Source: a virus (lineage: Duplodnaviria; Heunggongvirae; Uroviricota; Caudoviricetes). From it: a stretch of DNA of 64,000 bases. Positions 6,144 through 61,527 of the stretch are shown here, piece by piece. The position numbers were made by a program, and so were the translations under genes. The stretch is from the IMG/VR virus record IMGVR_UViG_2568526312_000010. One strand, given 5' to 3'. Under the pieces are notes generated by a model. That model saw nothing but the letters and a program-made list of their open reading frames with translations, searched no databases and had not been told where the DNA came from. Position 1 is the stretch's first letter. Each line of letters opens with the position of its first letter.

Positions 6144-6224
6144 ACGACTTATATATGACACAAAAAGCGACCACTAAAGTCGCTTTTTCTTATGGTAACA
6201 GGCAATAACGCTCTCAGATATTTT

Positions 6225-6539
6225 TTAGCATTTTTTTGACCGCGCGTTTCCGGACGTATTCTGTTCTCCTGTCCCTTTATATCGTCGGAATACCCGCCGC
6301 TCTTCAAATCCCATTCCCAACTCAGAATGTAGTCTGTTGACCGCTTGTTTTATTTCGGTCAGGTTCACCGGTGAAACCGGAGTCCGGCGCGCCTTACGCA
6401 AACACTCTGCTCGTTTCTGTGCCGCCACTTTTCTTTTCTGGTCATCACTTAGCTGTACCATCACTTTTGCCCATCGTTCAGCTGCTCTCCGGTACAGTCC
6501 TTTTTTCTCCAGACATTCTGCCAGGTGATCATGTAGCAT
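6225..6539 (-). CDS. PerC-family (Pch-like) transcriptional regulator homologue
   Basis: 104 aa with LEKKGLYRRAAERW and FRRYK motifs recalled from PerC/Pch proteins; sits in the Rz-to-cos moron slot; AT-rich region follows. Confidence 0.5.
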   Translation of the reverse strand: MLHDHLAECLEKKGLYRRAAERWAKVMVQLSDDQKRKVAAQKRAECLRKARRTPVSPVNLTEIKQAVNRLHSELGMGFEERRVFRRYKGTGEQNTSGNARSKKC

Positions 6540-7002
6540 AAGTAACCTCCGTTTATCTACAGACTGCCATCCTGAATTTACCGTCCTTAATAAGACAACA
6601 ATAAAAAACTAATTATATAAAAACAATAAAAATAATATACAAAAAAACTAAACAACAAAGAAAAGCAAATCATATCTGGCATTTTAATTGAAAGAGCAAT
6701 TACCGAACAAAAGACGCTGACTATATACTCAAAACCAAACAACAATTCTGCCAATCAGGTATCATGGCAACACACGGAATTACCATGTTTTTGCCTTCTC
6801 TGCCCATACAATACGGGCATATACTTCATACTCTATTGTAATATTTCTATCCATGTGCCCCACTCCATTTACCTGTAAATAATATTCAAAATATTTATCA
6901 CAGAAATCGTTTTTGGCCATGAACTGAGCACACTATAAAGTCCGGAACTGACTCTTTGTTAAATTACCTTAACGTTACCAGTAACACCTTCGTAACAAAA
7001 CA

Positions 7003-7476
7003 TCACGGTATACACTGGGTACGGATATATTCCTGTGCTCCTTCCAGTTGCTTCTGCATTGCCATCAGCCGTTCTCTGAGGATGAAATAATCCCGTTCAG
7101 CGGCTTCTGCCAGTCGGGGACCGGTTGCATTATCCACGCCGGAGGTGATGGGGGCTTTACGCAAGGAGCCTGGACAGTTGGCGTTGATGCGCAGGCGCTT
7201 ACGACCAGCGGCAACATCAGCACGCAGAGTTTCATTTTCAGCTCTCGCATCAGCTAATTCCCTCGAGTATCTGGCATCAAGTGCAGCAACATCACGCTGG
7301 CGCTGCTGCATATCAGTAATGGTTGCATTTGCCAGCTCCAGCTCACTGACTTTTTTATCGCGCTGCTCTTTGTAGGTTATGGCGTTATCGCGGTAATGAT
7401 TCAGCCCCAGACTAAGCGCACCACAGACCACCAGCAGAATAACGGTAAACGCGGAAAGCATTCGGTTTATGCTCAC
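7003..7476 (-). CDS. Rz: Rz i-spanin
   Basis: 157 aa with N-terminal TM segment and coiled-coil body, last gene of lysis cassette; contains Rz1 in +1 frame. Confidence 0.8.
   Translation of the reverse strand: MSINRMLSAFTVILLVVCGALSLGLNHYRDNAITYKEQRDKKVSELELANATITDMQQRQRDVAALDARYSRELADARAENETLRADVAAGRKRLRINANCPGSLRKAPITSGVDNATGPRLAEAAERDYFILRERLMAMQKQLEGAQEYIRTQCIP
7065..7250 (-). CDS. Rz1: Rz1 o-spanin lipoprotein (embedded in Rz)
   Basis: [15 protein letters not shown] lipobox then proline-rich PPSPPAW; nested inside Rz. Confidence 0.7.
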   Translation of the reverse strand: MRELKMKLCVLMLPLVVSACASTPTVQAPCVKPPSPPAWIMQPVPDWQKPLNGIISSSENG

Positions 7477-7618
7477 CCCACCAGCCCTGCCGAAGTCAAC
7501 GCCATCCAGGCCATGGAAAGAAAAAGAGCAACCAGCATTAGTGAAAATGAAATGCCGACAAGTACACAGAGGCTCTTCACCAGCGTTATGAGTTTATCTG
7601 ATATCATTAGCCACCCCA

Positions 7619-8188
7619 TCAATCCGCCTTTGTTATTTTCCCTTTGCCTGTATCAGCCAGGACAAAATCAATCAGCATATTCGCTTCATTTACCAGCGTA
7701 CGGATTTTTGATACATGCGCGGCTTTAACCTGTTTCCACTCATTCAGCCCGGTAGCAAACACACTGGCAATGTTTTTATCCCGTTTCATGTCAGCACAAG
7801 CCTGGTTGAGTTCTTCCATCACGCTCATTTTACGGGGATTAACGACAAAACCCTTCGTCCAGTACTCGTAAAGAACATCGTCGCACTCTTCCTGATACCG
7901 GATGACCTTATCGCGGATTTCGGGTTTTACTTTGTTGGGATTAATGGTTTGTAGCCAGCCGGCAAGTTTTCGAAGTGGCATGGACACCATATTGCGTTGT
8001 TTCCCATCCTCAGCAACCATAACGATTTCCGTTATAGTTGACGCAAAACGCTGTCTTAACTTAGCCAACTGTGATTGCCAGGCCAGCCCCATCCCCGCAA
8101 CGACAGGTTTCATGGGAACGTATGGTTCGCCATTATGGTTAACTACATAAAGAGAGTTGCCGTGAAACGGCACGGCCATCATATTCAT
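7619..8188 (-). CDS. antirepressor-like protein (Bro-N / KilA-C-like)
   Basis: 189 aa between endolysin and Rz; N-terminal AVPFHGNSLYVVNHNGEPYVPMKPV resembles Bro-N; has its own 270-bp upstream region. Confidence 0.5.
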   Translation of the reverse strand: MNMMAVPFHGNSLYVVNHNGEPYVPMKPVVAGMGLAWQSQLAKLRQRFASTITEIVMVAEDGKQRNMVSMPLRKLAGWLQTINPNKVKPEIRDKVIRYQEECDDVLYEYWTKGFVVNPRKMSVMEELNQACADMKRDKNIASVFATGLNEWKQVKAAHVSKIRTLVNEANMLIDFVLADTGKGKITKAD

Positions 8189-8297
8189 CGGTTATTTCCT
8201 TTTAGTGATGAACCTTGTCTCACAGGAATCCAGCCCACAGAAAGGCACCGACAGCCAAACCGGTATCCTCAAGGGTCATCCTGAAAGGTTCTGTGTT

Positions 8298-8458: not shown

Positions 8459-8992
8459 TTATCTGTCGATTCCCCAGCACGCCAGCGCGCTCTCCTGGTC
8501 ACGACGGGATACCTGACCGTAACAGTTATTTGAGCGAATACGGCAGTCCCTGCCACCGTCCTTAATCCACCAGCGAATCGCTTCGCAGGCACCTTTTCGA
8601 TCTCCTGCATTAATCCGTCTGTAAAACGTCGACGGGAAACACTTACCGGGGCCAATGTTGTACGGACAGAATGACGCGATCCCCGCTTTCTGGGGTTCGG
8701 TCAGCGGCACTCTGATGTTTTTCTCCACCCATGCCAGCGCCTTATCACGCTCAATGGCGTTAACCCGGTCGCATTTTTCCTTCGACAGCTTCATGCCAGG
8801 AATAACAGGCTTACCATCCCCCCGGGTGGCTCCACGGCAGATGGTCCAGATACCCGCACCATCACGGTATGCTGTGGTGTGGTTACCTTCCTTTTCATCC
8901 AGAAACTGGTCGAGGATTTCAGGCGCAGACGCCCCTGCACCAATCAGCGCCAGAACGGCAGCCGACAGGCCGTATCTGATTTTTGCGTTCAT
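8459..8992 (-). CDS. R: SAR endolysin (phage lysozyme, T4-lysozyme-like fold)
   Basis: 177 aa; weakly hydrophobic N-terminal segment YGLSAAVLALIGAGA then E..D..T catalytic spacing (EGNHTTAYRDGAGIWTICRG). Confidence 0.85.
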   Translation of the reverse strand: MNAKIRYGLSAAVLALIGAGASAPEILDQFLDEKEGNHTTAYRDGAGIWTICRGATRGDGKPVIPGMKLSKEKCDRVNAIERDKALAWVEKNIRVPLTEPQKAGIASFCPYNIGPGKCFPSTFYRRINAGDRKGACEAIRWWIKDGGRDCRIRSNNCYGQVSRRDQESALACWGIDR

Positions 8993-9042
8993 GGATATTT
9001 ATCAGGGTTTATCGATTTCAAATCCCTGGATATGTTAAGTCT

Positions 9043-9390
9043 TCAGGCCAGCGGTGGAGTCTTCAGAGAACCCGTAATTATTCCCGGTAGTTTTCCTCTG
9101 TAGGTTATCAACACATCCTGCGCCTCTAAAATTACGGGACGCTTTTCCGGTAACGGACCATCCCCTTCACATAACCCGGCAGCAACATCCATGAAAAACT
9201 GCTTCGCCTGCTTTTTCGCCTCAGCTTCGTAAAACTCCAGCGTGGCACCTTCAGTACGGTCAAGACTAATCGCCACATCTGGCAACAACAGTGACGGATA
9301 CCCACCAATTTCCGGTGCCACAGTAACAGTAATCTTATCCGGGTAATTATTTATCCCTTTAACAACCAGTTCGTATTTTTTCTTCATCAC
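9043..9390 (-). CDS. hypothetical protein within lysis cassette
   Basis: 115-aa ORF between holin and endolysin, identical in both prophages. Confidence 0.45.
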   Translation of the reverse strand: MMKKKYELVVKGINNYPDKITVTVAPEIGGYPSLLLPDVAISLDRTEGATLEFYEAEAKKQAKQFFMDVAAGLCEGDGPLPEKRPVILEAQDVLITYRGKLPGIITGSLKTPPLA

Positions 9391-11897: not shown

Positions 11898-12374
11898 CGA
11901 ATTTCTCCCGTGTACAGGAACAGAGTTAAAAAGCCGGAACCGGAATCAAATCACAGGATGACCATCTGCCAGTGGCTGGTCGTAAAAAAAAGCCGCGCCA
12001 TGCGCAGCCGGAAATAAAGGGATAACGATGATAGTTTGAGAAAAACAGAAACAACACTTTTGTGGCAAAGCATGGTGCCGGGTGCCTCCCGGTGAATTCA
12101 GTATCAGCACCTGAATCCGCGATTATCCCATATACCTGGTTGCTGATCGCCCCTCCGCACAGGGGGATTCACCATGCAGAAGTGTTTTTAATAAACAGCA
12201 AACAAAAAAATCAAGCATTATGCAGGCTGTTTCTTTTTATCACCGGCCACAGCAATACCACAATGCCGCAGACCAGCACCCCATCCGCCAGCACCGACAT
12301 GATTCTGCTGGTGAAATCCACCATCACCACCAGAAACAGCAGGAGTGCAGCCACAGCCAGGCGCAGTTTTACCG

Positions 12375-17371: not shown

Positions 17372-17527
17372 TTACTTCTCAGATTCGTAGTCTACGAAGA
17401 CAGCGACCTCCGTCTGACCGGTTCGGATTCGCACCTCGCAGAGGTCTTTCCTCGTTACCAGTGCCGTCACTATGACGGTTAAACAGATGACGATCAGGGC
17501 GATTAACATCGCCTTTTGCTGCTTCAT
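17372..17527 (-). CDS. hok: Hok/Gef-family membrane toxin (HokD/RelF-like)
   Basis: MKQQKAMLIALIVICLTVIVTALVTRKDLCEVRIRTGQTEVAVF matches recalled Hok family; RBS AAGGAG upstream. Confidence 0.8.
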   Translation of the reverse strand: MKQQKAMLIALIVICLTVIVTALVTRKDLCEVRIRTGQTEVAVFVDYESEK

Positions 17528-17817
17528 AGCCTGCTTCTCCTTGCCTTTCGGCACGTAAGAGGCTAACCTACATGTGTTCAGCATGGATTGAGCCTCAGAT
17601 TAATGTTAAGCGTCTTGCAGGACGCGTAATGTTAACTGGGGCTTTTCTCTATCTGCCGTTGGTGTTCATGCCCGAGGCAGATAGCCTCAAGCACCCGCAG
17701 CAATTCTACTTAACTATCCTTTTCCCGCAAACCGTTTTTATCCCCAGCGGCAAATCGAATACACCACCAGCGCCACCGCCATCGCAATTCCTACCGTTGT
17801 GAATGCTTCAGGCCAGG

Positions 17818-22623: not shown

Positions 22624-23262
22624 ATGAACAAGCAAACAATATCTGAACGCATAACCCAACGTATGCATGCGCTAAACTTGAAAGGCAAAGACCTTGTCAA
22701 TGCCACTGGCGCATCAAAAGGCTCCGTAAGTCAATGGATGAACGGTGGAGGAGCGCCGTCCTCGCGTTACATAAGTTCACTGGCAAAGATATTGAAAGTA
22801 AACGAAAATTGGCTTCTTAATGGAGGAGAGTTAAATACAGGTGATTCGCTTGATCTATCTTTACCGCCGATAAAAACGGTTCCGCTACTATCACTTCAGC
22901 AGGCAGCAAGCTGGAGTGATTATATGAAAAATTCCTCAATAACCTCTTGTGTGCAGCTTGTCGGAGAAATCCCGGCCAATACCTTTGCTGTTGTTCTAGA
23001 GAGTGACAGTATGTCGACATCTGGTGGTGGAGTTTCCATCCCAAATGGTTCAACAGTTTTTGTTGATCCCGATCGAATCGTACAACCAGGAAATATTGTC
23101 CTTGCCTTACCCAAAGGGACCACAACGCCTGTCATTCGCAAACTGGAGATAGAAGGGCCGGATATTCTTTTAGTCCCCACGAATCCTCGCTACCCTTCAA
23201 TTATGCTGGATGATCTATCTTGCATATTGGGAGTATGCTTTAAAATTCAACAAGATATTTAA
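22624..23262 (+). CDS. CI-like repressor (HTH_XRE plus LexA-like S24 peptidase domain)
   Basis: N-terminal HTH (ISERITQRMHALNLKGKDLVNATGASKGSVSQWMNG); C-terminal DSM...IRKL serine/lysine dyad. Confidence 0.85.
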   Translation: MNKQTISERITQRMHALNLKGKDLVNATGASKGSVSQWMNGGGAPSSRYISSLAKILKVNENWLLNGGELNTGDSLDLSLPPIKTVPLLSLQQAASWSDYMKNSSITSCVQLVGEIPANTFAVVLESDSMSTSGGGVSIPNGSTVFVDPDRIVQPGNIVLALPKGTTTPVIRKLEIEGPDILLVPTNPRYPSIMLDDLSCILGVCFKIQQDI

Positions 23263-24904: not shown

Positions 24905-24962
24905 TTTCTGGTGACGTTTGGCGGTATCAGTTTTACTCCGTGGCTGCTCTGCCGCCCTTTTT
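24905..24962 (+). ncRNA. dicF: DicF small RNA
   Basis: tttctggtgacgtttggcggtatcagttttactccgtggctgctctgccgcccttttt matches recalled DicF with one mismatch; terminator hairpin plus U-tract; upstream of dicB. Confidence 0.8.
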
Positions 24963-25131: not shown

Positions 25132-25320
25132 ATGGAAACGTTATTACCAAACGTTAATACGTCTGAAGGTTGTTTTGATATTGGTGTTCTGCTCAGTAAC
25201 CGGGAGTTTACTGAAGATGCCATTAACATGAGGAAATATGAGCCTTATCTGCTCAATGATAATTCCATACTTTCCCGAATTGCTCTTCTTGAACTTGGTA
25301 TTTTCGGAGAACGTCAATGA
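25132..25320 (+). CDS. dicB: cell-division inhibitor DicB-like
   Basis: METLLPNVNTSEGCFDIGV...TEDAIN matches recalled DicB N-terminus; GAGGA RBS; follows dicF. Confidence 0.7.
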   Translation: METLLPNVNTSEGCFDIGVLLSNREFTEDAINMRKYEPYLLNDNSILSRIALLELGIFGERQ

Positions 25321-25505
25321 CTTCAGCATTTGCACTGATGATGACGGTTTTTCTTATAACGGGTGAATCACAGAATGTGATTACCGGAATTTATGCCAGT
25401 AAAGAATCCTGCCTCCAGGCAAGAGACGAGCAAAAAATTTCTGGTGAATGCCTCCCGGTAAAAAAAGTATCGCTGTACCTGAATAACGAAACACCGGCTG
25501 GATAA
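25317..25505 (+). CDS. YdfD-like small protein with hydrophobic N-terminus
   Basis: 62 aa, MTSAFALMMTVFLITG signal-like segment, two Cys; start overlaps dicB stop (ATGA). Confidence 0.5.
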   Translation: MTSAFALMMTVFLITGESQNVITGIYASKESCLQARDEQKISGECLPVKKVSLYLNNETPAG

Positions 25506-25597: not shown

Positions 25598-26842
25598 ATG
25601 AGCACTGATAAAGAAGAATTTGCGCTATATTGCGAAGCAAAAAATGACAAAGTCAGAAAACGTCTGGGAATTAAAGGTGGTTTTTACTGGACTACAGCAA
25701 AAAAATTATCTGTTGCCATCTCCCGCTGCATTACCGCAATGGATGACAACGATTATGATGAAGACGACTTTAAAAAACCCGTTCGCGTCCATTTACCCGT
25801 TGTGAATGACCTTCCACCTGAAGGCGTGTTTGATACCGAATTCTGCAACCGATACGAAAAAGGCGGGGAAGATGGCATTACAATGGTATTTATCGCGCCC
25901 TCTCCCTCCGTGCAGGAGAAACCAGCCAGTACTGACAATACCAACGTCAACGGCGAAGACATGACGGAGATTGAGGAGAATATGCTCCTGCCGGTTTCTG
26001 GTCAGGAGCTGCCCATTCGCTGGCTTGCGCAACACGGCAGCGAAAAACCAGTAACGCACGTTGCACGGGAAGAACTTCAGGCATTACATATAGCACGGGC
26101 GGAAGAACTGCCGGCTGTTACTGCCCTGGCCATTTCTCACAAAACAAAGCTGCTCGACCCGCTGGAGATTCGCGACCTTCACAAACTGGTACGCGACACT
26201 GACAAAGTTTTCCCTAATCCCGGTAATTCAGACCTGGGACTGATAACTGCTTTTTTCGAGGCATACCTGGACGCTGACTACACTGATCGGGGTCTGCTGA
26301 CAAAAGAGTGGATGAAAGGAAATCGTGTTTCGCGTATCACCCGTACGGCTTCCGGTGCAAATGCCGGTGGCGGGAACAAAACCGATCGCAATCCGAATTT
26401 AGTACACACCTTCGATACGCTGGATGTGGAGATTGCAGCAGCCACACTTCCGATGGATTTTAATATTTATGAAATTCCGGGCAGCGTTTATCGTCGCGCA
26501 AAAGAAATCGTCCTGAAAAGAGAAAGTCCGTTCAAAGAATGGTCCGCAGCACTTCGCGCAACCCCGGGTATTCTGGACTATTCCCGCGCCGCTATTTTTG
26601 CACTTATCCGGAGCGCTCACCCTGAGTTTTATCACTACCCGGGACGCCTTCAGGGGTATATCAACGCCTACTTAACGGAGACTGATCACGAGAACCCCAG
26701 CAAGGAAACTCTCACTGCTGCACGACATACACCGGAAAAAGATATCCTGGAAGAAGTTAACCGCGAACTGTCTGCTAAGCAGGAAACAGAAGAAGAAAAT
26801 GATGAAGAAAAACCGCAACCATCTTGCGCAATGGCAGAATGA
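25598..26842 (+). CDS. hypothetical 414-aa protein (YdfE position), acidic C-terminus
   Basis: long ORF with no recognisable motif; between ydfD-like gene and truncated integrase. Confidence 0.5.
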   Translation: MSTDKEEFALYCEAKNDKVRKRLGIKGGFYWTTAKKLSVAISRCITAMDDNDYDEDDFKKPVRVHLPVVNDLPPEGVFDTEFCNRYEKGGEDGITMVFIAPSPSVQEKPASTDNTNVNGEDMTEIEENMLLPVSGQELPIRWLAQHGSEKPVTHVAREELQALHIARAEELPAVTALAISHKTKLLDPLEIRDLHKLVRDTDKVFPNPGNSDLGLITAFFEAYLDADYTDRGLLTKEWMKGNRVSRITRTASGANAGGGNKTDRNPNLVHTFDTLDVEIAAATLPMDFNIYEIPGSVYRRAKEIVLKRESPFKEWSAALRATPGILDYSRAAIFALIRSAHPEFYHYPGRLQGYINAYLTETDHENPSKETLTAARHTPEKDILEEVNRELSAKQETEEENDEEKPQPSCAMAE

Positions 26843-27375
26843 TAATCAGAAGAAATCTGGCAAAAGACCGTTTTACAGTACCAAAAACACAGGCGGGAAC
26901 CAATCGTGTGATTCACCTTATTAAGCCCGCAATCGACGCTCTCCGGAGTCAGATGGCACTAACGAGACTGAGCAAAGAGCATATCATCGATGTTCACCTC
27001 AGAGAATTCGGCAGAACAGAGAAACAAAAATGTACCTTTGTTTTTCAACCTGAAGTGTCAGCGAAAGTAAAAAATTATGGCGACCATTTTACCGTTGACT
27101 CAATAAGGCAGATGTGGGACGCAGCGGTAAAGCGTGCCGGAATCCGCCATCGCAAATCGTATCAGTCGAGACACACTTATGCCTGCTGGTCGTTAACAGC
27201 AGGAGCTAACCCGGCATTCATTGCAAACCAGATGGGCCATGCAGATGCGCAAATGGTGTTTCAGGTGTACGGGAAATGGATGTCAGAAAATAATAATGCG
27301 CAGGTAACGCTGTTAAATACACAGTTAAGCGAGTTTGCCCCAACCATGCCCCATAACGAAGCGATGAAAAGTTAA
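26824..27375 (+). pseudogene. tyrosine integrase, C-terminal catalytic fragment only
   Basis: 183 aa with H-x-x-R and Y (SRHTYACWSL...GHADAQMVFQVYGKWM) but no N-terminal domain or box-I Arg region. Confidence 0.7.
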
Positions 27376-27447
27376 TTTTTTATTTATCAATTAGTTAGAT
27401 TGAATGACTCTTGAAATCCATAATTCATAGATGTTTTTTACTATTCT

Positions 27448-27844: not shown

Positions 27845-28665
27845 TCAGAAGTGACCGTCCAGGCGGTCACCGAACTCGATAATAAAGCGGCTCATTGCCA
27901 TACGCCAGTCCCGCAGTGGCATCGTCCATTTCTGTGAAGCCGCCTGGATTGCCAGCCACACGACCTTTTTCACTGAGTCATCCGTCGGGAACACCTTGCG
28001 TTTTTTGATGGCATGCCGGATTACGCTGTTCAGCGACTCGATGGCGTTGGTTGTGTAGATGACTTTGCGGATATCTGCCGGGTAAGCGAAGAACATCGCC
28101 AGGTTGGTCCAGTTTGCCTGCCAGCTCCGGCTTATCTGCGGGTAGCGACTGTCCCAGGCGCTGGCGAACGCTTCCAGCGCCTGCTGGCCTGCTTCTTCTG
28201 TGGGGGCCTGGTAGATGGCTTTCAGGTCGCGGGTGACGGCTTTGTAGTCCTTCCAGGAAACGAACCGCAGGCTGTTGCGCACCATATGCACGATGCACAG
28301 CTGGATGCGGGCTTCCGGATACACCGTGTTGATAGCGTCCGGGAAGCCTTTCAGCCCGTCGACACAGGCTATGAGAATATCGTTCAGGCCGCGGTTTTTT
28401 AGTTCAGTCAGCACATTGAGCCAGAACTTCGCTCCCTCGTTTTCGGCCAGCCACATACCCAGTAACTCTTTCTGGCCTTCGATATTGATACCCAGTGCGA
28501 GGAATACGGATTTATTGATTACGCGACTGTCCTGCCGAACCTTCAGGACAATACAGTCAAGATAAACAATGGGATAGACCGCATCCAGTGGCCGGTTTTG
28601 CCATTCGACTACCTGCTCCATAACGGCATCGGTGACCTTCGATACCAGCGCCGGTGAGACATCAG
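27845..28665 (-). pseudogene. IS256-family transposase, C-terminal fragment
   Basis: mutator-type transposase body; reading frame continues from the N-terminal fragment at 31109-31503 once the nested IS is removed. Confidence 0.75.
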
Positions 28666-28757
28666 GTAAGCGTACAGCCTGAACCGTCTGGTCAGAATCT
28701 GACGAATTAGACAAAGTGGTGTCCACCAAATAAGTAGTGGGAACCAAAGTATCAGAT

Positions 28758-29138
28758 ATGCAGAAAAATGTGACTCCCGGCAGGCGAAAAGGCTGCCCTA
28801 ATTATCCTCCCGAATTTAAACAGCAGCTCGTTGCTGCCTCCTGTGAACCCGGGATATCCATCTCAAAACTTGCTCTTGAAAATGGCATTAACGCCAATCT
28901 GTTGTTCAAATGGCGACAACAATGGCGCGAGGGAAAGCTGCTATTACCTTCTTCAGAGAGCCCCCAGCTACTTCCTGTGACTCTCGATGCAGCTGCCGAA
29001 CAGCCAGAATCGCTCGCAGAGGACCCGGAAACCCTCAGTATCAGCTGTGAGGTAACGTTCCGGCACGGGACGCTCCGCTTCAATGGCAATGTCAGCGAAA
29101 AGCTCCTGACTCTGCTGATACAGGAACTGAAGCGATGA
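28758..29138 (+). CDS. IS66-family TnpA (orf1)
   Basis: first ORF of the three-gene IS66 unit. Confidence 0.7.
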   Translation: MQKNVTPGRRKGCPNYPPEFKQQLVAASCEPGISISKLALENGINANLLFKWRQQWREGKLLLPSSESPQLLPVTLDAAAEQPESLAEDPETLSISCEVTFRHGTLRFNGNVSEKLLTLLIQELKR

Positions 29139-29482
29139 TCCCGTTACCTTCCGGGACCAAAATTTGGCTGGTTGCCGGTATCACCGATATGAGAAATGGC
29201 TTCAACGGCCTGGCTGCGAAAGTACAAACGGCGCTGAAAGACGATCCCATGTCCGGCCATGTTTTCATTTTCCGGGGCCGCAGCGGCAGTCAGGTTAAAC
29301 TGCTGTGGTCCACCGGTGACGGACTGTGCCTCCTGACCAAACGGCTGGAGCGTGGGCGCTTCGCCTGGCCGTCAGCCCGTGATGGCAAAGTGTTCCTTAC
29401 GCAGGCGCAGCTGGCGATGCTGCTGGAAGGTATCGACTGGCGACAGCCTAAGCGGCTGCTGACCTCCCTGACCATGCTGTAA
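29135..29482 (+). CDS. IS66-family TnpB (orf2)
   Basis: 115 aa, overlapping start, typical middle ORF. Confidence 0.75.
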
Positions 29483-29531
29483 ATCTCTTTATCCTGGTTG
29501 TCACAGAATAAGCCCGGTAAAATACGGGCTT

Positions 29532-31070
29532 ATGAACGACATCTCTTCTGACGACATCTTCCTGCTGAAACAGCGCCTGGCCGAACAGGAAGCGCTGATC
29601 CACGCCCTGCAGGAAAAGCTGAGCAACCGGGAGCGCGAAATAGACCATCTGCAGGCGCAGCTGGATAAACTCCGCCGGATGAACTTCGGCAGTCGTTCCG
29701 AAAAAGTCTCCCGCCGTATCGCACAAATGGAAGCCGATCTGAACCGGCTTCAGAAAGAGAGCGATACGCTGACTGGTAGGGTGTATGACCCGGCAGTACA
29801 GCGTCCGTTGCGTCAGACCCGCACCCGTAAGCCGTTCCCTGAATCACTACCCCGTGACGAAAAGCGACTGTTGCCTGCGGCGCCGTGCTGCCCGAACTGC
29901 GGCGGTTCACTGAGCTATCTGGGCGAGGATACCGCCGAACAGCTGGAGTTGATGCGTAGCGCCTTCCGGGTTATCCGGACGGTACGGGAAAAACATGCCT
30001 GTACTCAGTGCGATGCCATCGTGCAGGCACCTGCACCTTCGCGGCCCATCGAGCGGGGTATCGCCGGACCGGGGCTGCTGGCCCGCGTGCTGACCTCGAA
30101 GTATGCAGAGCACACCCCGCTGTATCGCCAGTCAGAAATATACGGCCGGCAAGGTGTGGAGCTGAGGCGTTCACTGCTGTCGGGCTGGGTGGATGCATGC
30201 TGCCGGCTGCTGTCTCCGCTGGAAGAGGCGCTTCATGGCTATGTCATGACTGACGGCAAACTCCATGCCGATGATACCCCGGTCCAGGTACTGCTGCCGG
30301 GTAATAAGAAGACGAAGACCGGGCGGTTGTGGGCGTATGTTCGTGATGACCGCAATGCAGGGTCAGCGTTGGCACCTGCAGTGTGGTTCGCTTACAGCCC
30401 GGACAGAAAAGGCATCCATCCGCAGACTCATCTTGCCTGCTTCAGCGGTGTGCTGCAAGCGGATGCGTACGCCGGGTTCAACGAGCTGTATCGCAATGGT
30501 GGGATAACGGAAGCTGCCTGCTGGGCTCATGCCCGCCGAAAGATCCACGATGTGCACGTCCGCATCCCGTCAGCACTGACGGAAGAAGCCCTGGAGCAGA
30601 TCGGTCAGTTGTACGCCATAGAGGCGGATATAAGGGGAATGCCGGCAGAGCAGCGGCTTGCTGAACGTCAGCGAAAAACGAAACCGTTGTTGAAATCCCT
30701 GGAAAGCTGGTTGCGTGAAAAGATGAAGACCCTGTCGCGACACTCAGAGTTGGCGAAGGCGTTCGCGTACGCACTTAACCAGTGGCCGGCACTGACGTAC
30801 TATGCGAACGATGGCTGGGTGGAAATCGACAACAACATCGCTGAAAATGCCCTGCGGGCGGTCAGTCTGGGTCGTAAAAACTTCCTGTTCTTCGGCTCTG
30901 ATCATGGTGGTGAGCGGGGAGCGCTACTGTACAGCCTGATCGGGACGTGCAAACTGAATGACGTGGATCCAGAAAGCTACCTTCGCCATGTGCTTGGCGT
31001 CATAGCAGACTGGCCGGTCAACCGGGTCAGCGAACTGCTTCCGTGGCGCATAGCACTGCCAGCTGAATAA
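29532..31070 (+). CDS. IS66-family transposase TnpC (orf3)
   Basis: 512 aa with N-terminal coiled-coil/leucine zipper and Cys cluster (CCPNCGG...CTQC). Confidence 0.85.
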
Positions 31071-31108
31071 CACATCCCCGTCAATACGGCCCTCGCTGTA
31101 CGCTTACG

Positions 31109-31503
31109 ACATCAGCGTCATACAGCTCTTTAAACGCAGCCGCTATTTCGCGGGTTGTCAGGCCTTTGGCGTACAACGACAGGATCTGGTTATCCATCCC
31201 GGTGATCCGGGTCTGGTTTTTCTTCACAAGTTGCGGTTCAAAAGAGCCATCACGATCGCGCGGAGTGCGTAGTTCCAGGTGGCCATCACCGGTGATAACG
31301 GTCTTTGTGGAATAGCCATTGCGGGAGTTGGCACCCGGTTTAGGCTGGTTTTTATCGTAGCCCAGATGGTGGGACATTTCAGCGTTGAGAGCTGCCTCAA
31401 CGCTGATTTTCTTCAGCAGGCGATCGAACTGGCTGAGATCTTCAGGGGTTTTGAGATTTTTGGCCAGTTCGTTAGCCAGAGCCTGCAACTGTTTTTCGTC
31501 CAT
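31109..31503 (-). pseudogene. IS256-family transposase, N-terminal fragment
   Basis: KGLTTREIAAAFKELYDADV then ISEc8 end; continues in the 27845-28665 fragment. Confidence 0.75.
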
Positions 31504-61049: not shown

Positions 61050-61527
61050 CGAATTTCTCCCGTGTACAGGAACAGAGTTAAAAAGCCGGAACCGGAATCA
61101 AATCACAGGATGACCATCTGCCAGTGGCTGGTCGTAAAAAAAAGGCCGCGCCATGCGCAGCCGGAAATAAAGGGATAACGATGATAGTTTGAGAAAAACA
61201 GAAATAACACTTTTGTGGCAAAGCATGGTGCCGGGTGCCTCCCGGTGAATTCAGTACCAGCACCTGAATCCGCGATTATCCCATATACCTTCTTGCTGAT
61301 CGCCCCTCCGCACAGGGGGATTCACCATGCAGAAGTGTTTTTAATAAACAGCAAACAAAAAAATCAAGCATTATGCAGGCTGTTTCTTTTTATCACCGGC
61401 CACAGCAATACCACAATGCCGCAGACCAGCACCCCATCCGCCAGCACCGACATGATTCTGCTGGTGAAATCCACCATCACCACCAGAAACAGCAGGAGTG
61501 CAGCCACAGTCAGGCGCAGTTTTACCG

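What the first reader, a model, noticed from the sequence alone, without database searches (positions are those of the whole stretch)
25598..26842. 414-aa protein of unknown function abutting a 5'-truncated integrase
This large ORF follows the dicB/ydfD genes and its 3' end overlaps the start of an integrase fragment that has only the catalytic C-terminal domain. I find no nuclease, ATPase, reverse transcriptase or integrase motif in it. It may be an intact YdfE-type gene or cargo that replaced the integrase 5' region.
Basis: partly seen in the sequence, partly recalled or inferred. Interest (0 to 1): 0.5.

Follow-up and report, generated by a model that had tools for sequence, protein, structure and literature searches.

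The report
Deletion-truncated prophage exonuclease gene remnant
The 414-codon ORF is the front half of a RecE-family prophage exonuclease gene in E. coli O157:H7; a 2,321-bp deletion removed its nuclease domain, the excisionase gene and the front of the integrase gene, an ordinary, already annotated case of prophage decay.

Summary
The ORF at 25598-26842 (+) is real, but it is neither unknown nor intact. It matches Pfam Exonuc_VIII and the first 409 of 877 positions of NCBIfam's exodeoxyribonuclease VIII model. It is 413/415 identical to residues 1-415 of an 820-aa exonuclease in O157:H7 strain LSU61. That strain has the undeleted arrangement at the same locus: dicB, DUF1482 (ydfD), exonuclease, excisionase, 431-aa integrase, DinI-like gene.

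The window differs from LSU61 by one 2,321-bp deletion at an imperfect 9-nt microhomology (window 26830-26838). The deletion removes exonuclease codons 416-820, including the DEDDh (Rv2179c-like) nuclease domain. It also removes the whole excisionase gene and integrase codons 1-253, including the first catalytic arginine. The junction itself creates the ORF's stop codon.

The ORF is not homologous to K-12 YdfE. YdfE is another 5' remnant of the gene in the same position, but of a different allele.

PGAP already annotates both pieces as pseudogenes. EDL933 lists this exact protein as "putative exonuclease VIII ... partial". Asadulghani et al. 2009 recorded disrupted integrase and Exo VIII-type genes in several Sakai prophages.

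The retained part is predicted to fold well and has no known structural relative. Its function is unknown, as for the non-catalytic N-terminal region of RecE generally.

The parts
24906..24957 (+). DicF sRNA gene, upstream member of the same early-left (dicB) operon (context)
   Evidence: Rfam RF00039, 75 bits against a gathering score of 48, E 1e-14
25132..25320 (+). dicB, cell-division inhibitor (context)
   Evidence: Pfam PF05358, E 2.7e-36. PGAP annotation in the identical TW14359 sequence
25317..25505 (+). DUF1482 / YdfD-family gene (context)
   Evidence: Pfam PF07358, E 2.9e-15. PGAP annotation
25598..26842 (+). 5' remnant (codons 1-414 plus a junction-created stop) of an 820-codon RecE-family exonuclease gene with a DEDDh nuclease domain. 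It keeps the non-catalytic N-terminal region only.
   Evidence: PF06630, E 1.6e-34. NF007259 residues 1-414 on profile positions 1-409/877, 619.6 bits against a cutoff of 1269. 57% identity to K-12 RecE residues 50-397. 413/415 identity to LSU61 exonuclease residues 1-415. The exact protein is on record as 'putative exonuclease VIII within CP-933O; partial'.
26830..26838 (.). Deletion junction. AATGGCAGA is the exonuclease-side copy of an imperfect 9-nt microhomology (the integrase side reads AATGGAACA). The crossover is at A26838. TGA 26840-26842 becomes the stop codon, and ATG 26839-26841 is integrase codon M254.
   Evidence: Megablast matches to integrases all start at 26830, and matches to exonucleases end at 26842. 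Alignments A1, A2 and A5 and the LSU61 sequence place the junction.
26839..27375 (+). 3' remnant (codons 254-431) of a 431-codon tyrosine integrase gene. It is out of frame with the exonuclease remnant and lacks the arm-binding domain, the core-binding domain and the box I arginine.
   Evidence: 98% identity to residues 249-431 of WP_001206148.1. Pfam Phage_integrase hit covers profile positions 52-165 only. Full-length domain layout. R235 lies upstream of the break.
27376..27424 (.). End of this prophage (att-side sequence). It is shared with the K-12 Qin and O145 prophage ends and is followed by the next, tandem prophage instead of rspB.
   Evidence: Alignment A3: identity with L004 and K-12 up to about 27424, then divergence. 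Downstream genes are DinI-like, IS256 family, nleG7 and tail fibre.

Best explanation
The ORF and the abutting integrase fragment are the two stumps left by one 2,321-bp deletion inside a lambdoid prophage of E. coli O157:H7.

The ancestral early-left operon read DicF, dicB, ydfD-like, exonuclease (820 aa), excisionase, integrase (431 aa). The exonuclease has a RecE-like non-catalytic region of about 620 aa followed by a C-terminal DEDDh 3'-5' exonuclease domain.

Illegitimate recombination between AATGGCAGA in exonuclease codons 413-415 and AATGGAACA in integrase codons 251-253 removed three things: the second half of the exonuclease gene with its nuclease domain, the whole excisionase gene, and integrase codons 1-253. 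The deletion is not a multiple of 3, and the junction reads GAA-TGA. Translation of the exonuclease frame therefore stops at once, giving 414 aa with one non-native residue.

Shown: the family of the ORF, the ancestral arrangement, the exact junction, and the loss of the nuclease domain, xis and the integrase box I arginine.

Inferred: the prophage can no longer excise by its own Int/Xis. The 414-aa product, if it is made from the still-intact operon, has no nuclease activity and is most likely a functionless or at best residual fragment.
For: (1) Family. The ORF hits PF06630, NF007259 residues 1-414 on positions 1-409/877 and PHROG 607 residues 1-399 on positions 1-402/883. It is 57% identical to RecE residues 50-397.
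(2) Undeleted ancestor at the same locus with the same neighbours. LSU61 locus L010 encodes DicB, DUF1482 and DinI-like proteins with the same WP accessions as TW14359. Between them lie an 820-aa exonuclease, an excisionase and a 431-aa integrase. Their domains are PF06630 plus PF16473 (residues 639-810), PF06806, and Arm-DNA-bind_2 plus Phage_integrase.
(3) Identity. 413/415 on the exonuclease side and 180/183 on the integrase side.
(4) Junction. The window equals L010 up to 6607 followed by L010 from 8929. The same result comes from two independent parents, L009 and L004.
(5) Independent coordinates. Across E. coli genomes, integrase matches all start at 26830 and exonuclease matches end at 26842.
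(6) The same gene order, exonuclease directly followed by xis and int, occurs in other prophages and in an isolated phage.
(7) Existing annotation and literature. PGAP calls both pieces pseudogenes. The EDL933 name says 'partial'. Asadulghani 2009 lists disrupted Int in Sp3, Sp11 and Sp12, and Exo VIII-type genes intact only in Sp10 (PMC2669165). The same paper found no excision of Sp11 or Sp12.
Against: Nothing contradicts the deletion itself. On the question of function, several points leave room for doubt. The remnant keeps its native start, a Shine-Dalgarno-like motif and its upstream operon. It is predicted to fold confidently up to about residue 397 (pLDDT 88.4), and the break lies in a disordered acidic linker, so a stable protein could be made. 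The exact sequence is seen on at least 1000 contigs without further decay, although O157:H7 is too clonal for that to indicate selection. I did not determine which Sakai prophage (Sp number) this is.
Confidence: 0.93

Rival explanations
1. The truncated product is a functional stand-alone protein. The RecE-like N-terminal module would be expressed with DicB and YdfD from the early-left operon and keep an activity of its own, such as protein or DNA binding or modulation of host recombination or defence. It would be retained in O157:H7 for that reason.
For: The start codon, the Shine-Dalgarno-like motif and the upstream operon are intact. AlphaFold2 gives pLDDT 88.4, with folded domains to about residue 397 and the break in a disordered linker. 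The same N-terminal module is joined to two different nuclease domains in relatives (DUF3799 in 20 and Rv2179c-like in 10 of 57), which suggests it is an autonomous module. The literature reports that full-length RecE improves linear-linear recombination over the nuclease domain alone (PMC11611040).
Against: Among 222 family clusters the module occurs at the N-terminus of long proteins. Short entries look like contig-end or remnant fragments. The stop codon is a by-product of a deletion that also destroyed xis and int. About half of the non-catalytic region (parent residues 416-620, including the CxxC...CxxC segment) is also lost. O157:H7 clonality explains the lack of decay. PGAP treats it as a pseudogene.
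Confidence: 0.06
2. This is the first reader's reading: the ORF is an intact YdfE-type gene, or foreign cargo that was inserted and replaced the 5' part of the integrase gene.
For: The ORF occupies the same position as ydfE in K-12 Qin, after dicB and ydfD and before an integrase pseudogene.
Against: There is no sequence similarity to K-12 YdfE. YdfE residues 1-256 are 84% identical to the N-terminus of a different 823-aa exonuclease allele. The ORF is collinear with, and 99% identical to, the first half of the resident exonuclease gene of the undeleted prophage. No foreign DNA lies at the junction.
Confidence: 0.01
3. The junction arose by recombination between two different prophages, or by misassembly of repeated prophage DNA, and not by an internal deletion.
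For: O157:H7 carries many similar lambdoid prophages. The 2.8-kb query matches a median of 3 and up to 13 places per genome. The best non-O157 relatives of the two sides lie in different prophages, L005 at potC and L004 at rspB.
Against: LSU61 has both sides in one prophage with the same flanking genes, differing by exactly 2,321 bp. The same junction is present in 216 independently finished genomes.
Confidence: 0.01

Closest known systems
820-aa prophage exonuclease WP_000102122.1 (O157:H7 LSU61) and 812-aa WP_000102130.1; phage vB_EcoS-640R1 'exodeoxyribonuclease VIII'
   Same: Residues 1-414 are 99%, 95% and 93% identical respectively. The upstream neighbours dicB and DUF1482 are the same.
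   Different: The window copy lacks residues 416-820, which include the rest of the RecE-like region and the Rv2179c-like DEDDh 3'-5' exonuclease domain.
RecE (exonuclease VIII) of the K-12 Rac prophage, 866 aa
   Same: 57% identity to RecE residues 50-397, and a Pfam Exonuc_VIII hit. This region of RecE has no known function (PMC11611040).
   Different: RecE's catalytic domain is a PD-(D/E)XK fold (DUF3799, residues 615-850) and the gene is followed by recT. The ancestor of the window gene has a DEDDh domain instead, and recT is absent from the window and from the intact relatives. The window copy has no nuclease domain at all.
ydfE-insD7-intQ pseudogene cluster of the K-12 Qin prophage
   Same: Both have the same position after dicB and ydfD. 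Both are 5' remnants of the exonuclease gene, followed by a damaged integrase of the same type. The integrase 3' part is about 91% identical in DNA and the att-side sequence is the same.
   Different: The N-terminal allele differs, with no similarity to YdfE. The K-12 gene is interrupted by IS2, whereas here a clean 2,321-bp deletion did the damage.

Membership tests
RecE / exodeoxyribonuclease VIII (NCBIfam NF007259 equivalog; Pfam PF06630 + PF12684) | N-terminal Exonuc_VIII region (PF06630) | tested here: met
   E 1.6e-34, residues 57-189. 57% identity to RecE residues 50-397.
RecE / exodeoxyribonuclease VIII (NCBIfam NF007259 equivalog; Pfam PF06630 + PF12684) | C-terminal PD-(D/E)XK 5'-3' exonuclease domain (DUF3799; RecE residues ~606-866) | tested here: not met
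   No hit in the ORF. The ORF covers only profile positions 1-409 of 877. Even the undeleted ancestor has PF16473 (DEDDh) there instead.
RecE / exodeoxyribonuclease VIII (NCBIfam NF007259 equivalog; Pfam PF06630 + PF12684) | Score above the equivalog cutoff (1269 bits) | tested here: not met
   619.6 bits.
RecE / exodeoxyribonuclease VIII (NCBIfam NF007259 equivalog; Pfam PF06630 + PF12684) | Adjacent recT annealase partner gene | tested here: not met
   No recT in the window between the ORF and the integrase fragment. Intact relatives have the exonuclease followed directly by xis. K-12 Rac has recE followed by recT.
RecE-N / DEDDh prophage exonuclease (WP_000102122.1 type) | RecE-like N-terminal region in the dicB, DUF1482, exonuclease gene order | tested here: met
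   413/415 identity and the same neighbours.
RecE-N / DEDDh prophage exonuclease (WP_000102122.1 type) | C-terminal Rv2179c-like DEDDh exonuclease domain (PF16473) | tested here: not met
   Deleted. The parent has it at residues 639-810, and the ORF ends at residue 414.
Tyrosine recombinase / phage integrase (the abutting fragment 26839-27375) | Arm-binding and core-binding N-terminal domains | tested here: not met
   The full-length protein has Arm-DNA-bind_2 at residues 9-71 and a SAM-like domain at 85-126. The fragment starts at residue 254.
Tyrosine recombinase / phage integrase (the abutting fragment 26839-27375) | Complete catalytic set including the box I arginine | tested here: not met
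   R235 (YTGIRPGEL) lies upstream of the break. The Pfam hit covers profile positions 52-165 only. The box II region (SRHTYA...GH...VYGKW) is retained, by inspection.
YdfE (K-12 Qin, b1577) | Sequence similarity to YdfE | tested here: not met
   Best BLASTP hit has E 2.1. The only link is the shared position, plus 34% identity between ORF residues 270-406 and the full-length form of the YdfE allele beyond the point where YdfE is cut.

The most novel reading that the evidence does not exclude
The 414-aa product is made and retains an independent activity of the RecE-family N-terminal module. That module is predicted to fold confidently, has no structural relative in PDB or BFVD, and pairs in nature with either PD-(D/E)XK or DEDDh nucleases. 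If the product is active, O157:H7 would carry a natural 'module-only' variant that could show what this long-unexplained region of RecE does.
Probability: 0.06. Interest if true: 0.4.

Novelty: already known. Interest (0 to 1): 0.08.

Why it matters
The finding itself matters little. It is a textbook case of prophage decay that fixes a prophage in the chromosome by removing xis and half of int along with the exonuclease domain. It is already flagged in genome annotation and in the O157 prophage literature.

The work adds four small points:
- The exact 2,321-bp breakpoint and its microhomology.
- An undeleted ancestor within serotype O157:H7 (strain LSU61).
- The point that these 'RecE family' prophage genes carry a DEDDh nuclease domain, not a RecE-type one, and have no recT partner.
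- The point that K-12 ydfE is the same kind of remnant, from another allele.

Tried and rejected
- Comparison with K-12 YdfE found no similarity. The 'YdfE-type' reading was rejected except in the positional sense.
- run_python BLAST of the window against fetched loci failed, because only loci identical to the window are exposed in /data. I used DNA alignment and protein comparison instead.
- A sequence search of the PDB gave only a non-significant hit, E 0.2.
- I could not assign the prophage to a specific Sakai Sp number from the text of Asadulghani 2009. The EDL933 name says CP-933O.
- The 120 hits listed by the first homologue search (search for homologous proteins) were almost all near-identical partial entries. 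They were useful only because they revealed the undeleted allele P0018.

Full report
**Observation**

The ORF listing shows an ATG-initiated ORF of 414 codons at 25598-26842 (+). No other ORF in the region has comparable length. A GAGG motif lies 7 nt upstream of the ATG.

Upstream on the same strand lie three elements:
- A DicF sRNA at 24906-24957 (Rfam, 75 bits).
- dicB at 25132-25320 (PF05358, E 2.7e-36).
- A DUF1482/YdfD-family gene at 25317-25505 (PF07358, E 2.9e-15).

Downstream, an ORF at 26824-27375 overlaps the last 19 nt in another frame and hits Pfam Phage_integrase over profile positions 52-165 only. The observation as described is therefore confirmed.

**Source of the window**

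The 2.8 kb around the ORF is 100% identical to many finished E. coli O157:H7 genomes, for example TW14359. NCBI's PGAP pipeline annotates two pseudogenes there:
- 'RecE family exodeoxyribonuclease, incomplete, missing C-terminus'.
- 'tyrosine-type recombinase/integrase, incomplete, missing N-terminus'.

The wider annotation shows that the window spans two tandem lambdoid prophages. The integrase stump marks the end of the first one. A DinI-like gene, an IS256-family transposase gene split by ISEc8, nleG7 and tail-fibre genes of the second prophage follow.

**Family of the ORF**

Four family and similarity searches agree:

| Search | Result |
|---|---|
| Pfam PF06630 (Exonuc_VIII) | E 1.6e-34, residues 57-189 |
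| NCBIfam NF007259 (exodeoxyribonuclease VIII) | residues 1-414 on profile positions 1-409 of 877; E 9.3e-186; 619.6 bits, below the 1269-bit equivalog cutoff, as expected for half a protein |
| PHROG 607 | residues 1-399 on positions 1-402 of 883 |
| BLASTP against K-12 Rac RecE (866 aa) | 57% identity to RecE residues 50-397 |

There is no similarity to K-12 YdfE.

The exact 414-aa sequence is already in public databases. It is recorded as 'putative exonuclease VIII within CP-933O; partial [E. coli O157:H7 str. EDL933]' and as UniRef A0A7U8MRF8_ECO57, and it is seen on at least 1000 contigs.

**The intact gene**

Related prophages and one isolated phage show the full arrangement: dicB, DUF1482, an 'exonuclease' of 812-823 aa, excisionase, integrase (L004, L005, L008).

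The 812-aa protein of L005 is 95% identical to the ORF over residues 1-414. It is homologous to RecE from residue 58 to about residue 615 (RecE residues 50-592, 58% identity). Its C-terminal domain, however, is a Rv2179c-like DEDDh 3'-5' exonuclease (PF16473, residues 631-802). RecE instead has a PD-(D/E)XK domain there (DUF3799, residues 615-850).

None of these intact relatives has a recT gene next to the exonuclease gene. K-12 Rac does.

**The undeleted ancestor**

The search for homologous proteins returned longer, partial proteins that are 100% identical to the ORF and continue past its end, for example P0018. Its contig, L009, has the same upstream genes as the window.

A DNA search with the downstream part of that allele found it at 99.6% identity in finished genomes, including O157:H7 strains LSU61 and 493/89.

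In LSU61 (L010) the locus reads: DUF1627, P, DnaT-like, YdaT, Cro, LexA-family, DUF1391, a hypothetical protein of 212 aa, DicB, DUF1482, exonuclease (820 aa), excisionase, integrase (431 aa), DinI-like, an intact IS256 transposase, NleG7. DicB, DUF1482, DinI-like and NleG7 have the same protein accessions as in TW14359. This is the same prophage at the same place, without the deletion.

Its exonuclease has PF06630 at residues 57-189 and PF16473 at residues 639-810. Its excisionase is PF06806. Its integrase has Arm-DNA-bind_2 at residues 9-71 and Phage_integrase at residues 206-397. The window ORF is 413/415 identical to exonuclease residues 1-415.

**The breakpoint**

The sequences at the junction are as follows:

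| Sequence | Bases at the junction |
|---|---|
| LSU61, exonuclease side | ...CTTGCGCAATGGCAGA (ends at L010 6607), then TGAACAGG |
| LSU61, integrase side | ...CTGAAAAATGGAACA (ends at L010 8928), then ATGATAATCAG |
| Window | ...CTTGCGCAATGGCAGAATGATAATCAG... |

The window therefore equals L010 up to 6607 joined to L010 from 8929. That is a deletion of 2,321 bp, with a 1-nt ambiguity in its position.

The two ends share AATGGnAnA (7 of 9 bases, 5 of them contiguous). The window carries the exonuclease-side variant at 26830-26838.

Independent parents give the same junction: L009 or L005 for the exonuclease side and L004 for the integrase side. The megablast coordinates agree as well. All integrase-only matches start at window 26830, and exonuclease-only matches end at 26842.

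The deletion is not a multiple of 3. Exonuclease codon D415 (GAT) becomes GAA, followed by TGA at 26840-26842, so the ORF's stop codon is created by the junction. ATG 26839-26841 is integrase codon M254 and overlaps that stop (ATGA).

216 finished genomes carry the junction.

**What was lost**

- Exonuclease residues 416-820: the remaining roughly 200 aa of the RecE-like region and the whole DEDDh domain.
- The excisionase gene.
- Integrase residues 1-253: the arm-binding domain, the core-binding domain and the first part of the catalytic domain, including the box I arginine (R235 in YTGIRPGEL).

The integrase stump keeps the box II region but cannot be a complete active site.

From these losses I infer that the prophage cannot excise by its own Int/Xis. 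Asadulghani et al. 2009 agree. They list Int as disrupted in Sp3, Sp11 and Sp12, list Exo VIII-type recombination genes as intact only in Sp10, and found no excision of Sp11 or Sp12 (PMC2669165). I did not determine which Sp number this prophage has.

K-12 YdfE residues 1-256 are 84% identical to residues 1-256 of the 823-aa exonuclease of L004. ydfE is therefore also a 5' remnant of the gene in this slot, cut by IS2, but of a different N-terminal allele. That allele shares only 34% identity with the window ORF, over ORF residues 270-406.

The integrase stump is about 91% identical in DNA to K-12 intQ. The sequence after its stop codon is shared with Qin and L004 up to about 27424. There it diverges into the next prophage instead of rspB.

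**Could the remnant still do something?**

A search of 1.84 billion cluster representatives finds only 222 family clusters. Among 57 diverse members, 52 have PF06630, 20 have the PD-(D/E)XK domain, 10 have the DEDDh domain and 3 are fused to RecT. The N-terminal region therefore behaves as a module joined to alternative nucleases.

An AlphaFold2 model built on that alignment is confident, with mean pLDDT 88.4 and pTM 0.62. It has folded alpha/beta and helical domains up to about residue 397 and a disordered acidic tail to residue 414. The break thus lies in a linker.

No solved or viral predicted structure resembles the model:
- Foldseek against PDB: E >= 1.1.
- Foldseek against BFVD: E >= 0.33.
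- phmmer against PDB sequences: no significant hit.

The literature calls the RecE N-terminal region a domain of unknown function that improves linear-linear recombination (PMC11611040). A stable 414-aa protein with some residual activity cannot be excluded, but nothing here supports it. O157:H7 is too clonal for the lack of further decay to mean anything.

**Verdict**

The ORF is real, but it is an ordinary, already annotated pseudogene remnant. It is the 5' half of a RecE-family (DEDDh-type) prophage exonuclease gene, joined out of frame to the 3' part of the integrase gene by a single 2,321-bp microhomology-associated deletion.

It is not an intact YdfE-type gene, not cargo, and not part of the integrase. 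Novelty: already known. Interest is low.

Noticed in passing
L010:5364-7826, L005:6299-8737, L004:3439-5910 (relatives); window 25598-26842: Prophage genes that PGAP names 'RecE family exodeoxyribonuclease' share about 590 aa of non-catalytic RecE sequence. They end in a Rv2179c-like DEDDh 3'-5' exonuclease domain where RecE has a PD-(D/E)XK domain, and they have no adjacent recT. The shared N-terminal module is predicted to fold confidently and has no structural relative in PDB or BFVD.
   Followed up: partly
L003:6079-6999 (K-12 ydfE) compared with L004:3439-5910: K-12 YdfE residues 1-256 are 84% identical to the N-terminus of an intact 823-aa prophage exonuclease. ydfE is therefore a 5' remnant, cut by IS2, of the same-slot exonuclease gene, with an N-terminal allele unrelated to RecE.
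   Followed up: yes
window 27845-28747 and about 31108-31503 (-); 28737-31070 (+): An IS256-family transposase gene is split by an ISEc8 (IS66-family) insertion carrying tnpA, tnpB and the transposase. In O157:H7 LSU61 the IS256 transposase gene is intact at the same place.
   Followed up: partly
window 26839-26842: The deletion junction creates an ATGA overlap. The stop codon of the exonuclease remnant overlaps integrase codon M254, which could in principle allow coupled translation of a 178-aa integrase C-terminal fragment lacking the box I arginine.
   Followed up: no
window about 27376-27424: The sequence after the integrase stop codon matches the K-12 Qin and O145 prophage ends next to rspB, then diverges into a second prophage. 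The two prophages appear to sit in tandem at a Qin-type attachment site.
   Followed up: partly
window 8482-9388 (-) and 6172-8270 (-): In the identical TW14359 annotation, the first prophage has a major-capsid gene missing its N-terminus directly abutting a YdfR-family gene missing its C-terminus. This suggests another internal deletion that removed lysis, terminase and capsid 5' sequence. The portal gene is also frameshifted.
   Followed up: no
window 39799-39915 (+): An ALIL pseudoknot (an IS3-family frameshift element; Rfam 120.9 bits) lies inside the tail-gene region of the second prophage. tRNA coordinates downstream are shifted by about 1.24 kb relative to TW14359. This suggests that an IS629/IS1203-type insertion is present in the window's strain but absent from TW14359.
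   Followed up: no
window 17522-17696 (-); 12034-12206 (-) and 61187-61359 (-): There is a sok antitoxin RNA next to a hok/gef gene, and two copies of sRNA STnc100, one in each prophage (Rfam).
   Followed up: no
window 22624-23262 (+): The window has a 212-codon ORF resembling a CI/LexA-type repressor. PGAP annotates only a 112-aa 'LexA family protein' over its 3' part in TW14359 and LSU61. Asadulghani 2009 says the repressors of Sp11 and Sp12 are disrupted. I did not check whether the N-terminal HTH part is genuine.
   Followed up: no
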